From positions 1,466,076-1,530,075 of the forward strand of contig MU056277.1 in the NCBI GenBank assembly GCA_013239625.1: a stretch of DNA of 64,000 nucleotides, given 5' to 3'. The translations under genes and the position numbers were made by a program. The notes below the pieces were generated by a model. The model did not search any database and was not told the origin of the DNA. It worked only from the letters and a program-made list of their open reading frames with translations. This stretch comes from Lama guanicoe (taxonomy: Eukaryota). Positions 22,974-49,306 of the stretch are shown here, piece after piece. The first letter of the stretch is position 1; every line of letters begins with the position of its first letter.

Positions 22974-23111
22974 NNNNNNNNNNNNNNNNNNNNNNNNNNN
23001 NNNNNNNNNNNNNNNNNNNNNNNNNNNNNNNNNNNNNNNNNNNNNNNNNNNNNNNNNNNNNNNNNNNNNNNNNNNNNNNNNNNNNNNNNNNNNNNNNNNN
23101 NNNNNNNNNNN
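22974..23111. other. N-run, 138 nt
   Basis: Directly visible run of N. Confidence 0.99.
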
Positions 23112-23802
23112 TGTGTTGTAAATCGACACTGACAGCCAAATGGGGAAAATTGACAGAGCACTGTAATCACTCCCAACATCCCCTGAAGGTATTGATCCAG
23201 AACCTCTGTAATCCCCTTCACATAACACAAGCAATTTTATGTAATACCTGTAATAAGGGCGCATTCAGGCTCAAGTAGCCGTCTGAAGCATTGTATCTAA
23301 TGGCGAAGGGGCCGCCGCTGAGCGTGGAGGGAAAAGCGAGGTGCCTCCCGCCTTCTGGAGGTAACAGCCTCCGATAAGAGGGAGTTTAGGAGATAAACAG
23401 CTCCTAATGCCAAAGAAAATGAGCTATTAATTGCCGGCTTGCTAACTACGCTGTGGGAGAGGGCGCGGCGGGCAGCGTGGGGCAGGGGCCGGGCCGGGGC
23501 TGACGGACTTCTCGGGCTCCTGCTGCCCACTATCTGATGCTAATTACAACCGCGGGGAGACGCTGACAGGCGTTTAGCGGCCGGGCCATTACATCCTTCC
23601 CAGGTGCTTTCCCGTGAAATGTTCCTCCAGTTTTACAAGCTCCTTCTCGCCCTGATGGATTATTCCGCAGCCTTATCAAAGCTTTGCCAGCTCCTCATTA
23701 ATATATAGAGCGAGCCGCACCGCCCTATATATCATTGTCTTCCTCACGGGGAGGGCTAATCCGTCAGCCGCTATCAGCCCGTCGGCAGAAGGTGGGTAAT
23801 CA

Positions 23803-23950
23803 NNNNNNNNNNNNNNNNNNNNNNNNNNNNNNNNNNNNNNNNNNNNNNNNNNNNNNNNNNNNNNNNNNNNNNNNNNNNNNNNNNNNNNNNNNNNNNNNNN
23901 NNNNNNNNNNNNNNNNNNNNNNNNNNNNNNNNNNNNNNNNNNNNNNNNNN
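23803..23950. other. N-run, 148 nt
   Basis: Directly visible run of N. Confidence 0.99.
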
Positions 23951-26539
23951 CTCTTTCGTTACTGTTAAACGGCCATAACATTTATCACACCGAACAAGAA
24001 TGGACGTTTAACTACCATGATAAAATGGGACAGCGTCAGATTGAAAACCCAACAAGTCGTGATTACAGTGTCAGGCACTTTCCACTGGTTGAGAGAGAAA
24101 ACGGGAGACAGAGCATGTGTTATAATCATTCACGCATTATTCTGCAGAATGAGAAGAAAATAGATCTATTTTAGAAATGTCTTTCAGCGTCCTCCGAGCA
24201 AAACCGGAGGAAACGGTTAACATACTCTGCTTCCCAGATCGTTTTTATCAATGAAACAATAGGACGTTAAGTGACGGTCCTCCCATCAGGTCTTCTCCCC
24301 CAAATGTGTGTTTATTAGAGGCTGATTCAGAGGCTGCGAGAGGGAGTTCTGGGAAAGGCTTGCTCCCTGCTGAATTCTGAAATAAAGTCAGCTGAAGTCA
24401 GTCCGGCAGCTCCCTGTGCGGCTTTTCACAGGCGGCGTTTCCAGGCTGCAGTAACACCAAAGTGAGGCACCCTGTGCTTTCAGAAGTTAAGGAGCAGAGC
24501 ATCTGACGCAGCCAGGCTGGTTACTGAGTTGCCTTTCCTGACGTATTTGGGGACAGGCTGTGGCGTTTGAAGTCTGAAAGAAATTTTGACAGCACCGTGG
24601 GAAAAAAAATTTAAAGGGGGCTCCACGTCCCTCCACTCGCTCCCGTGTTGACCCTTAGAGTTTCTGACCCGGAAGCTTCCCACGCACGTGGACGGCCGCT
24701 GCCGCCACCGCCACCCAGATGTCTGTGCCTCACGCCGCTGGCACCGCACGACGCCTTCTCTGTCTCTCCGTGTGGGTGGGCTGGCAGGTAACGTAGGTCA
24801 TGAATTCCACAGTTAGATGTGCATCCGCAGAAGGAAAGTGTGTCTTCTGGTCTTGCTTTCGCTTCTCAGTAGAATCAGGGACCGAGGGAAAGGAACCTCA
24901 TAACCCCCGTCCGCCTCCTTCTCCGCAGTTCGCCTTTCAGCTGGGGAAGAAACACACACACAGTGGAAAACGCCCCGCTGTGCCCCGCCTCTGTGTGTGG
25001 CCCTCGGGAGCCGGGGCGTCGGGGGAGTGAGAGCACAGTGCTCCAGCTGTGCCCGGTGCTGATGGCGTGCAAGGCTCCCGGACTGGGGTTGTTATCATCG
25101 CTGTTACTTTGCAGCTAACACCTGTCCGTTTGTACCAGGGTTTCTTAGCCTCAGGCCCATCCGCATTTGCAACAGGTAACTCTTTGGAGAGGGCAGGGGC
25201 CGTCCTCTGTGTCATGGGACGCTTAGCAGCATCGAGGAGGTTGGCCTCTGCCCCCTGCCGGCAGCAACGCCCTCGCCCCGTGTGATGGCCCACACTGCCT
25301 CTGGACATGGTCAGTGTCCTGGAGAGGGGCCTGGAGGTCGTCACCTCCAGTTGAGAACTATTGATTTAGGTACACTTAGCACATTGCTGACTGACGGTAT
25401 TGCTCTGTGAAGCCTTCCCAGTGATTCCTGCAGTCTCCCTTCCACAGTGGGTGACTCAGTGGACGTGAGTCGGGGGCCTCTTGTGGCAAATACACAGCAT
25501 TTTGAAACAACCCCTTCAGCATGTGGTTGTGAACTGGCCTGTGATCAGTGAACTTTAACACAGCACACTTACTAATTGACTTCCAGCGCGTGTCAGCGGA
25601 GTGGACACTACCCGCATCCTTCATCTGGGTGGAAGGAAGGACAAGGCCTGCCTTACAAAGCCGCCAGTCCATCCTGGGGACGCATAGTAGGGCCCTCACT
25701 CCGGCATTGACATCCACCCTCCAAGAAGGACGTGATAAAGCGCGTGAAACCAGGACTGTTTACGTACATACACTGGTACAACCCAGGTTGAGCACACACC
25801 GCTCGGGGCGTGTGTTGATTCCAGTTTCATCGTGTGGTCACACACCTTACACATAAGCACACAGTCGCGGGCAGACTCTTTTGCCGTTTTGCTTGGAGAG
25901 CAGTTACTGCTTCAGAATCAGCTCTCACCGTCTCTAGGAAGATGGGACGTGTTGGCCTTTATCCTCCTGTGATCAGGTCGCTTAGCCTCCGATGATCAGA
26001 CCTGCATGGCCTTTTCATTGAACAGGCTGAGATGCCCAGCTTCCTGCCCCCCCAAGTCCTGTGCACTCACCCCGCAGGTTGAGGCCTCCGCCCTGCGATC
26101 GTTCAGACTTACCCTCTGCTCCAAATGCATCTTTCTTCCGAGATGCAGGGTGTGTCTAGCAGGGCTGGGAGACAGAACCAGGAATGTGGGTTCTGCCCTC
26201 TTGGGGTCATTTCAGAGGGTGTTGGAGCCTGGCCCCAAGTCTGGCTGCAGCCCTCCCTCAGTCTTTGCCCTGACCTTGCAGCCCAGGCCCTGTGCACGCG
26301 GTGGCAGGCCATGATTGACTGAGCCCTTACGACACGGGGACCCACGTGACACAAAAACCAAGCTTCTTTCTGGTAAAGGCGCCGCACATGGTCTCTCACT
26401 ACTCAGCAGACACGTGGGGGCCCTCTGGCCGGCCCAACGTGCCCGGCTCCGCGAACCCTCAAGCCCGCTCGCAGGATGGACGTGGTGTCCCTCGTCTGGC
26501 TGTGGATCCTGACTTTGGCGCCTGAGCTGCAGCTGGAAA

Positions 26540-27310
26540 ACAGCTCATTCCAAAATCCATTTTATTAACTTTGTTTTGTTGGCTGGAGCCGAGGGCCGTC
26601 TTAGGCCCCGAATAATCACAGTGGTGCAGTGAGCTCCGGGGCGAGAACGAGGGGCTTTCTTCTTGGCCATGCTCCTGCAGGACTGATCTGTACCCCCAAG
26701 CCGATTGTCACTGGCAGAAAATGAGAACCAGGAGCATTCAATGCAAAGTAATGTGTTCTGTACAATTACTGGATTAATAATTTTATTCCATTACCGTGTG
26801 GGGAGAGAGGACATCGGCCGGCAGATCTGCAATTCTAGTCTATTTCTAAGCNNNNNNNNNNNNNNNNNNNNNNNNNNNNNNNNNNNNNNNNNNNNNNNNN
26901 NNNNNNNNNNNNNNNNNNNNNNNNNNNNNNNNNNNNNNNNNNNNNNNNNNNNNNNNNNNNNNNNNNNNNNNNNNNNNNNNNNNNNNNNNNNNNNNNNNNN
27001 NNNNNNNNNNNNNNNNNNNNNNNAGAATAGCAGGCTTGAGTTTCCAGTAACGACAAAAAAAAAAAAACAAAAAAACTAACCACACACGGCAAATGACATT
27101 TTGCATCTTGCTGTAAATATTTTTTTTCAGAAAAATGAATAGCATCATTATTCAATGATCAAAAATATTATTCTCTTTCCAGACCAGATGCTGTGACCAC
27201 AGTGACATTTCGAAATGACAGGAGGGTTGGATTATGAGGGAGAGCCATTTACATTTGCAAATTAAGTTTCTGGCGTTGTACTTTAAATTTAAATAATTGT
27301 CTACCCCATT
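26540..27310. promoter_or_regulatory. Candidate conserved enhancer surrounding the third N-run
   Basis: AT-rich unique flanks with 'ttttattaac', 'ggattaataattttattcc', 'tgtaaata' and the palindrome ATTTGCAAAT 27253-27262. Confidence 0.6.
26852..27023. other. N-run, 172 nt
   Basis: Directly visible run of N. Confidence 0.99.
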
Positions 27311-37330: not shown

Positions 37331-38530
37331 ACGGCTCTCTCACCCCCACCTTTCAGACGACGTAAAACCTGAAAAATGGATTTACGTTTACCTTCATGTG
37401 CTGATTCCAAAGCTTTGTGTAGAGCCAAGTTTTAGTCTGACACACACACACGTGTGTATATATATATGTATTTTGTTTGTTTGTTTGTTTGTTTTGTTAT
37501 TGGGTCCCTCTGCTGACACTGAATTCTCTCAGTTTTGGTTCTTCCCCGAGAATGTCTTCTTTCTCCTGTATTTTTGAAATACATTTTCTCTGGGTGTAGA
37601 ACTCAGGGTCAACAGTTTTTCCTCCTCTGCAACGTGAGGGTGCGGGTCCCTGGGCTCCAGTGTCCCTGTGCACGCGCAGCGCCCCCTTCCTCGAGCTGCC
37701 TTCGGGACGGCCTTCACTTCCTGTCTTCAGTGGTTTAACACGCCGCCTCAGGGGCTGGTTTGTTCCGTATTTTTCCTGTCTGGTGTCCTCTGTCTTTCTG
37801 GATCTGTGGCGTGGTGTCTGCCGTTACTTCTGGGGATTCTTGACAGTGTCGTTTCAGGCACCCCTCTGCCCACCCTCGCTCCTGTCCGCGGGTTTTGCGG
37901 TCGTGCCCGCTCTGGTGTTTGCTGTAGTCCCACGGCTCTTGGGGTCTGTTGTTTTTTATGTTTTGCCTTTCCCGTGCTTTTCCTCTTTGTACTTCGACTT
38001 GGATGATTTCTGCTGACCCGCCTTCCTGTGCAGTGAGTCTTCAGAGCCTGGGAGGAGTCCGCTGCCGAGCCTTCGAGGCCGCCCTCCTCTCTCTACAGTG
38101 GGTTGTTCATTTCTAGCCTTTCCAGGTGGTTTTTTCTTAGTCTCTCTCCTGAAATTCCCATCTGGTCTTGTGTGTGACACCCTTTTTCTATTAGAGCCTT
38201 TAACATACTAATTAGAGTTATTTTAAATTCCCTGACAGACAGTTCCAGCAGCTGTTACCTATCTGAGTCTGATTCTGATGGTGGCTCTCTCTGGGCAGTG
38301 TGTGGGTTTCCCTGGCTTTCCTGGCAAGCCTCGGGGTTTGTGTGTGAAAGCGGCTCTGCTGCACCGGCCAGCAGGGGGTGAGGTGTGGCTCTCGTGCCTG
38401 GACAAGGGTGTGCCGTTCTTTCTGCTGCACCTGCAGCGTGAGGTCTGCACCCGTCTGGCTGGGAGTCAGGTGGGTCTGTGACCTGCCACTCCCATAGCTG
38501 CCCGCAGTGCACTGCCGGCTTCAGACTCCT

Positions 38531-38639
38531 GCAGGGACCTCTCGGGGTGGGGAGGGGAGGCTGGCTGTGCAGAGACCTCTCGGGTGGGGAGGGGAGGCTG
38601 GCTGCGCAGAGACCTCTCGGGTGGGGAGGGGAGGCTGGC
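38531..38639 (+). repeat. G-rich minisatellite, ~37-bp unit x3
   Basis: 'gacctctc' recurs at 38536, 38574 and 38611. Unit gcagagacctctcgggtggggaggggaggctggctg(c/t). Confidence 0.95.
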
Positions 38640-39520
38640 CTGTTCAGTTCCTCAGCTTGGCCCTCCCTTGGCACGGTGCCTCGGATGGGGCGTCTTGGCT
38701 GCTCTCGCTCATCTCCTGTCCCTCTCCCAGCAGGGTTCTGCTGTTACTTGTGGTTTGAAGCTCCTTGGCTTGTGGTGGTGGTGGGCGGGGGTGTGGCTCC
38801 TATGGTTCTGATTGAGGCTCGTTTCTGGGCGTCACCGTCTCCCAGGCCTCAGGGTGTCGGTTTCTCAGTTCCCCTGCCCCTGCCCTGCTCCAGTCCCGCA
38901 CTCAGAACTTAAATTTAAAACCCAGGAGTAGGGCCCCCACGCAGCCTCCGTCCACCTGCAGGGCGGGGCCGCCAGCGCGCCGCGGCCTGCGGAGCTGTTG
39001 CCTGTAACGGACGGCGGGGAGGCTCGGGTGGGGTCTCTGGCTGCTGTTCCTGCCCTGGATCTTCACCAGCGGGGCCACTTCTCAGGCTCTTTCCTGTTGT
39101 TTCCATGAGCACTTGGTGGGGCTAACAGGGAAAGGACCTGCCAGACTAGGTGGCCTCCCCGAGTCTCTGCAGCCGCAGGGCTCAGCCGTGCCCCGCGCCC
39201 AGCCACCCCCGCAGACTCTCACACCGGGGTGTCTTGTCGTGTCTGCTGGAGGTGGCCGCACGTGTGCCTCTCCCTCTCCCTCTCCCGGCCAGGACTGTGT
39301 AGGGGGAAACCTTAGGCCATTGTTTGCTCTGTGACCTCAGCTCCCTGAAGGTTTGAGCAAAGCTGTGGGTTTGAAGCAAGGCTCTTTATCACTGTACGAG
39401 TGGGGACAGCGTTCCTTCCAACTCGACACGTCCTGGGGTGGGAGCCACAAGTCTCCAGGGTCCTCCTTTTAGCAGCATGTGCAGGCGGGACCACAGGGCC
39501 CAGACCTGGGGCCCCGCGGT

Positions 39521-49170: not shown

Positions 49171-49306
49171 GCCCCAGGAAGAGTGCTGACCCGAGGGTCG
49201 CCGTGGACAGGAGGCCCCAGGAAGAGTGCTGACCCGAGGGTCGCCGTGGACAGGAGGCCCCAGGAAGAGTGCTGACCCGAGGGTCGCCGTGGACAGAAGG
49301 CTCCAG
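49171..49306 (+). repeat. Minisatellite, 43-bp unit x3 plus partial copy
   Basis: gccccaggaagagtgctgacccgagggtcgccgtggacaggag starts at 49171, 49214 and 49257. Copies are essentially identical. Confidence 0.97.

What the first reader, a model, noticed from the sequence alone, without database searches (positions are those of the whole stretch)
22974..27023. Three odd-length N-runs fall in the cores of the most enhancer-like unique sequence: possibly masked ultraconserved elements
Seen: the only gaps in 64 kb (138, 148, 172 nt) lie within 4 kb of each other. Their flanks are unique and motif-dense, not the repeats or GC extremes where assembly gaps usually occur, and their lengths are not round placeholder sizes. 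Inference: they may be segments so similar to human or another species that a contamination screen or filter hard-masked them. If so, the Ns mark the most constrained bases of the locus, and such assemblies could systematically lose ultraconserved elements.
Basis: partly seen in the sequence, partly recalled or inferred. Interest (0 to 1): 0.72.

Follow-up and report, generated by a model that had tools for sequence, protein, structure and literature searches.

The report
Scan-added blanks upstream of SOX1
The three blank stretches are most likely placeholders added by this scan rather than biology, and they sit in and near an ordinary, likely regulatory stretch about 185 kb upstream of a gene that is likely the brain-development gene SOX1.

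Summary
The three N-runs (138, 148, 172 nt) are where stated and are the only ones in the window.

Non-round length tells nothing: 6 of 6 N-runs in 800 kb of neighbouring contig are also non-round. Context does differ. 5 of those 6 have a flank of at least 65% GC and hardly any TAAT; 0 of the 3 window runs do.

The window lies in the gene desert between TEX29 and a SOXB gene, likely SOX1. The visible 691-nt block between the first two runs is single-copy and enhancer-like: 16 TAAT cores against 5.6 in shuffles, plus a PBX-HOX/MEIS pair. Only 2 of 5 flank pieces are motif-dense.

Conservation was not shown. The idea that assemblies systematically lose ultraconserved elements is unsupported: the region downstream of SOX1, where a >99% human-mouse element is published, has no N. 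Verdict: a processing artefact over a likely ordinary enhancer region.

The parts
22974..23111 (.). N-run 1 (138 nt), likely a scan-placed blank
   Evidence: task brief
23112..23802 (.). Visible single-copy enhancer-like block: 16 TAAT/ATTA cores, 4 WGATAR, 3 TGACAG, 1 strict PBX-HOX site
23564..23662 (+). MEIS/PREP-type site followed after 83 nt by a strict PBX-HOX-type site; the only strict pair in the window, 1 of 9 in 864 kb
   Evidence: motif definitions from PMC4489388
23803..23950 (.). N-run 2 (148 nt), likely a scan-placed blank
   Evidence: task brief
26652..26851 (.). Visible TAAT-rich flank left of run 3 (6 cores vs 2.0 in shuffles, 12 of 1000)
26852..27023 (.). N-run 3 (172 nt), likely a scan-placed blank
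   Evidence: task brief

Best explanation
The three N-runs are likely blanks placed letter for letter by this scan's preparation of the window, and they lie in and near a single-copy, homeodomain-motif-rich non-coding block about 185 kb upstream of a SOXB gene that is likely SOX1. Shown: positions, uniqueness, motif excess and gene neighbourhood. Inferred: the visible block works as an ordinary long-range developmental enhancer. Homeodomain factors and PBX-HOX-MEIS complexes would bind the clustered sites and act on the SOX1 promoter within the upstream chromatin domain. The blanks themselves carry no mechanism.
For: The brief states that stretches (plural) of this window were replaced by N, and the window holds only 3 N-runs. 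The three are in excess of the local background: 6 runs in 800 kb give 0.48 expected per 64 kb, P(>=3) = 0.013. They also differ from it in context. 5 of 6 background runs have a 100-bp flank at >=65% GC, with 0-2 TAAT in 400 bp; the 3 window runs have flanks at <=56% GC and 5, 8, 8 TAAT. Locus: an HMG + SOXp protein lies in L035, with its ATG 185.7 kb from run 1; TEX29 is at contig 1,236,412 and SPACA7 at 1,838,157. The gene order that names it SOX1 is recalled. The TAAT excess of 23251-23750 ranks 1 of 3449 windows in 864 kb. TAATTA enrichment is a described feature of vertebrate CNEs (PMC5728398). CNE clusters at SOX1 are published (PMC1896008), and mouse Sox1 has a 430-kb upstream domain (PMC11031936).
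Against: In the window, scan blanks and assembly gaps cannot be told apart, so one run could be a true gap. The background runs may themselves include withheld stretches. Conservation of the visible block was not shown. Its motif pair matches 0 of the 5 human chr13 rows seen between 112.06 and 112.64 Mb in a published hg19 table. Across all 136 4-mer classes one first rank is expected by chance (1 seen, about 0.7 expected), so the TAAT result rests on TAAT having been chosen beforehand, as 1 of 6 motif classes. 3 of 5 flank pieces show no motif excess. The enhancer could serve a non-coding transcript rather than SOX1.
Confidence: 0.82

Rival explanations
1. One or more runs are true scaffold gaps of a draft assembly, with sizes estimated from read pairs.
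For: The assembly has 55,231 pieces, and the contig carries other short non-round N-runs (6 in 800 kb). The one inside SOX1 has a frame shift across it, as expected for an assembly defect.
Against: Three runs in 4 kb against 0.03 expected. Moderate GC and unique flanks, unlike 5 of 6 background runs. The brief says stretches of this window were replaced.
Confidence: 0.12
2. One reading: the assembly's makers hard-masked ultraconserved segments as supposed human contamination, and assemblies lose such elements systematically.
For: The runs sit in a desert known for conserved elements and beside a motif-dense block. Confusing conservation with contamination is a recognised risk (PMC5017631).
Against: The brief gives a simpler source for the N. 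No N lies from just inside SOX1 to about +133 kb, and the HMG-box coding part is readable, although a >99% human-mouse element (PMC5641280) and PE Sox1(+35 kb) (PMC8285398) are published downstream; I did not locate their orthologues here. FCS-GX discounts highly conserved intervals. Each run is under the 200-bp floor of UCE and UCNE definitions.
Confidence: 0.04
3. The runs are scan blanks, but the surrounding sequence is neutral and the motif cluster is chance.
For: No conservation shown; 0 of 5 human table rows match; the 4-mer-wide control expects about 0.7 first ranks.
Against: 0 of 1000 shuffles reach the TAAT count. GATA also ranks 5 of 3449 in the same window. The only strict PBX-HOX/MEIS pair of the window is in the block.
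Confidence: 0.15

Closest known systems
Conserved non-coding elements of the SOX1 locus (Woolfe and Elgar fish-mammal CNEs, PMC1896008; PE Sox1(+35 kb), PMC8285398; SOX1-OT conserved region, PMC5641280)
   Same: Same locus; non-coding, single-copy, homeodomain-core-rich sequence in the desert of a developmental transcription factor.
   Different: Those have shown conservation, and PE Sox1(+35) has shown function; the two positioned elements lie downstream. This block is about 185 kb upstream and neither conservation nor activity was shown.
PBX-HOX + MEIS/PREP hindbrain enhancer syntax (Grice et al., PMC4489388)
   Same: Both strict motifs lie within 100 bp.
   Different: The gap is 83 nt, above the more specific 40-nt class. 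The predictor requires the pair to be conserved, and no matching human row was seen.
Ultraconserved elements (UCE, >=200 bp and 100% human-mouse-rat) and UCNEs (>=200 bp and >=95% human-chicken), as defined in PMC3436827
   Same: Cluster near a developmental gene, with TAAT-rich context.
   Different: Each run is shorter than 200 nt and its identity to other species is unknown.
Contamination-screen masking (FCS-GX, PMC10898089; human-contamination survey, PMC5017631)
   Different: Both methods include steps to spare conserved sequence, and here the brief names the scan as the source of N stretches.

Membership tests
UCE / UCNE | Length of at least 200 bp | tested here: not met
   Runs are 138, 148 and 172 nt; definition. 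A run could cover only part of a longer element.
UCE / UCNE | 100% human-mouse-rat or >=95% human-chicken identity | not tested
   The letters are N; no vertebrate alignment was made.
UCE / UCNE | Listed in UCE, UCNEbase or VISTA catalogues | not testable with these tools
   The supplements of PMC3436827 and PMC3527541 could not be read.
UCE / UCNE | Located in the regulatory block of a developmental gene | tested here: met
   TEX29 - window - SOXB gene - SPACA7 on one contig.
Developmental CNE / enhancer (visible block) | Non-coding and single-copy | tested here: met
   Single match; no Rfam hit; no repeat. Non-coding status rests on ORF inspection only.
Developmental CNE / enhancer (visible block) | Excess of homeodomain core motifs | tested here: met
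   16 vs 5.6, 0 of 1000 shuffles; rank 1 of 3449.
Developmental CNE / enhancer (visible block) | Cross-species conservation | tested here: inconclusive
   0 of 5 human chr13 motif-pair rows match; a recalled hg19 assembly gap may cover the orthologous interval.
Developmental CNE / enhancer (visible block) | Enhancer activity or open chromatin | not testable with these tools
   No assay data obtained.
PBX-HOX/MEIS hindbrain syntax | Both strict motifs within 100 bp | tested here: met
   23564 and 23653, gap 83.
PBX-HOX/MEIS hindbrain syntax | Pair conserved across vertebrates | tested here: inconclusive
   No matching row in the hg19 table.
Assembly scaffold gap | Flanked by GC-extreme or repeat sequence like the contig's other N-runs | tested here: not met
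   0 of 3 with a flank >=65% GC, against 5 of 6 outside.
Assembly-wide masking of conserved elements | Other highly conserved stretches of the locus also read N | tested here: not met
   No N from just inside SOX1 to about +133 kb; the orthologue of the published element was not located.

The most novel reading that the evidence does not exclude
The visible block and its hidden neighbours form an undescribed, strongly conserved long-range SOX1 enhancer cluster about 185 kb upstream, driven by homeodomain and PBX-HOX-MEIS factors. It may have been overlooked by hg19-based catalogues because the human counterpart falls in an hg19 assembly gap (the gap is recalled; the published table has no row between chr13 112,341,132 and 112,531,174).
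Probability: 0.2. Interest if true: 0.3.

Novelty: not a real feature. Interest (0 to 1): 0.08.

Why it matters
As reported, the finding is most likely a processing artefact, so it says nothing about genome assemblies or ultraconserved elements. It has two practical uses. [quoted passage not shown] Had assemblies been deleting ultraconserved elements, loss-of-element studies would be biased, but this locus gives no support for that.

Tried and rejected
Sequencing-run search for the visible block, limited to ATAC libraries: none was listed, and no RNA holder was listed; this is no evidence either way.

Rfam scan of the window: 0 matches. ORF listing: no recognisable protein around the runs, judged by inspection only. 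Bacterial promoter/terminator scan: at shuffle level and not relevant to a mammal. The protein atlas could not read the SOX protein, so the name rests on Pfam and gene order.

'Non-round length' as a sign of masking: rejected, 6 of 6 background runs are non-round. SOX, FOX and TALE motif excess in the 200-bp flanks: no run reached below 5% of 1228 background flanks. GATA did so for 1 of 3 runs.

Calibrating human distances by matching motif pairs: I found no convincing match, by eye, between the 3 conserved human rows and the 38 local pairs listed. SOX1 in the CNE table of PMC4489388: 0 occurrences of the word.

Paper searches for a described enhancer at this place: (the phrase 'Sox1 enhancer' with 'upstream' gave 0 papers). 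None was seen in the listings or in the passages read. Searches for screens that mask UCEs: no listed title or abstract start reports it. Earlier-findings look-ups by words and by place were empty. The ranks included undefined values, so one search was used for the rank.

Full report
Observation. The window has exactly three N-runs: 22974-23111 (138 nt), 23803-23950 (148 nt) and 26852-27023 (172 nt) (seen). They span 4,050 bases; three uniformly placed points would do so with P = 0.012. The flanks hold no tandem repeat, no dispersed repeat copy and no Rfam match. The block between runs 1 and 2 has one match in the own genome.

Where the N comes from. It adds that such N says nothing about the sequence beneath and cannot be told from assembly gaps. 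With only three runs in the window, most or all must be of this kind (inference from the brief). The hidden letters remain unknown, so every claim about their conservation stays open.

Background. In 800 kb of the same contig outside the window (80 stretches) there are 6 N-runs, of 21, 45, 48, 86, 95 and 259 nt. All 6 are non-round, so length shape does not discriminate. The rate gives 0.48 expected per 64 kb, P(>=3) = 0.013, and 0.03 per 4.05 kb. 5 of the 6 have a 100-bp flank of at least 65% GC, and all 6 have only 0-2 TAAT cores in 400 bp. The 3 window runs have flanks of 32-56% GC with 5, 8 and 8 cores. The window runs therefore look like a different class from most local runs. Caveat: the background runs may include withheld stretches.

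Locus. The window is G000:C7267:1,466,076-1,530,075 in a 2.05-Gb genome. A protein with HMG-box and SOXp domains lies in L035, with its ATG 185.7 kb from run 1 and 181.6 kb from run 3. TEX29 matches at 1,236,412 and SPACA7 at 1,838,157 on the same contig. The order TEX29-SOX1-SPACA7 is recalled from human 13q34 and names the gene SOX1. The window is thus in a TEX29-SOX1 desert of about 438 kb. An earlier AI note calls the genome camel-family; I did not test that.

Visible sequence. The 691-nt block 23112-23802 has 16 TAAT/ATTA cores against 5.6 +/- 2.2 in dinucleotide shuffles (0 of 1000), and the 200 nt left of run 3 has 6 against 2.0 (12 of 1000). The other three flank pieces show no excess: 0 vs 0.1, 3 vs 3.1 and 5 vs 4.2. 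Window 23251-23750 ranks 1 of 3449 for TAAT excess in 864 kb and 5 of 3449 for GATA. Over all 136 4-mer classes, 1 ranks first in this region where about 0.7 is expected, so the result leans on TAAT being chosen beforehand as 1 of 6 classes. The block also holds the window's only strict PBX-HOX plus MEIS pair, gap 83, 1 of 9 in 864 kb.

Conservation. Not shown. In the hg19 motif-pair table of PMC4489388, the chr13 rows I saw between 112.06 and 112.64 Mb were 3 conserved and 2 non-conserved; 0 of 5 match this pair in order and gap. Not all non-conserved rows with the prefixes 1120, 1122 and 1126 were viewed. No row lies between 112,341,132 and 112,531,174. That fits a recalled hg19 assembly gap but is also within chance at this density, so the test is inconclusive.

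The general claim. If the assembly's makers had masked human-like conserved DNA, other such stretches should read N. There is no N from just inside SOX1 to about +133 kb, and the HMG box is readable. A >99% human-mouse region is published towards the 3' end of SOX1-OT (PMC5641280), and PE Sox1(+35 kb) is conserved to chicken and needed for Sox1 expression (PMC8285398). I did not locate either orthologue here. FCS-GX discounts highly conserved intervals and applies automatic internal fixes to inter-kingdom chimeras (PMC10898089). PMC5017631 uses lineage specificity to spare conserved sequence. Each run is also shorter than the 200-bp floor of UCE and UCNE definitions (PMC3436827).

Mechanism. 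The blanks have none. For the visible block, the likely mechanism (about 0.6, inferred) is a long-range neural enhancer: clustered homeodomain, GATA-type and PBX-HOX/MEIS sites bind their factors and act on SOX1 within the upstream domain. That domain is 430 kb in mouse (PMC11031936). SOX1 is a known CNE-cluster locus (PMC1896008), and TAATTA enrichment is a described CNE feature (PMC5728398). Shown: motif content, uniqueness and position. Inferred: binding, activity and target.

What I saw of each paper. Passages only: PMC8285398, PMC5017631, PMC3436827, PMC13761666 (nothing of use), PMC11031936, PMC1896008, PMC5641280, PMC10898089 and PMC5728398. Passages plus searched rows of supplements 2 and 6: PMC4489388. 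Supplements not readable: PMC3436827 (UCNE coordinates) and PMC3527541 (enhancer list); both could bear on whether a catalogued element lies here. All other papers: search listing and start of abstract only.

Verdict. The N-runs are most likely a processing artefact, not a biological or assembly feature, over a likely ordinary enhancer region of SOX1. Interest 0.08.

Noticed in passing
L035 from 4647 (SOX1 coding sequence): A 45-nt N-run begins 105 nt after the ATG, in a GC-rich glycine tract, and the reading frame is shifted across it. The gene looks broken, most likely from an assembly defect rather than a real loss.
   Followed up: partly
contig C7267, at -44, +136, +36, -235, -71 and -343 kb from the SOX1 ATG: Other 500-bp windows with strong TAAT excess and no N; these are candidate enhancers. 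The +36 kb one is near where PE Sox1(+35 kb) would be expected.
   Followed up: no
L021 (about 45 kb right of run 1): A 95-nt N-run at the edge of a very GC- and CpG-rich stretch about 141 kb upstream of SOX1, possibly an orphan CpG island or a non-coding RNA promoter.
   Followed up: no
window 1-64000: High GC (about 54%) and a high CpG observed/expected ratio (0.35-0.80 per kb) across an apparently gene-free window.
   Followed up: no
window 38530-38647 and 49171-49306: Short GC-rich minisatellites: 37 bp x 3.1 and 43 bp x 3.2 copies.
   Followed up: no
human hg19 chr13 112.34-112.53 Mb (PMC4489388 supplement 6): No motif-pair rows over 190 kb, consistent with a recalled hg19 gap that could hide part of the SOX1 desert from hg19-based catalogues.
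   Followed up: partly
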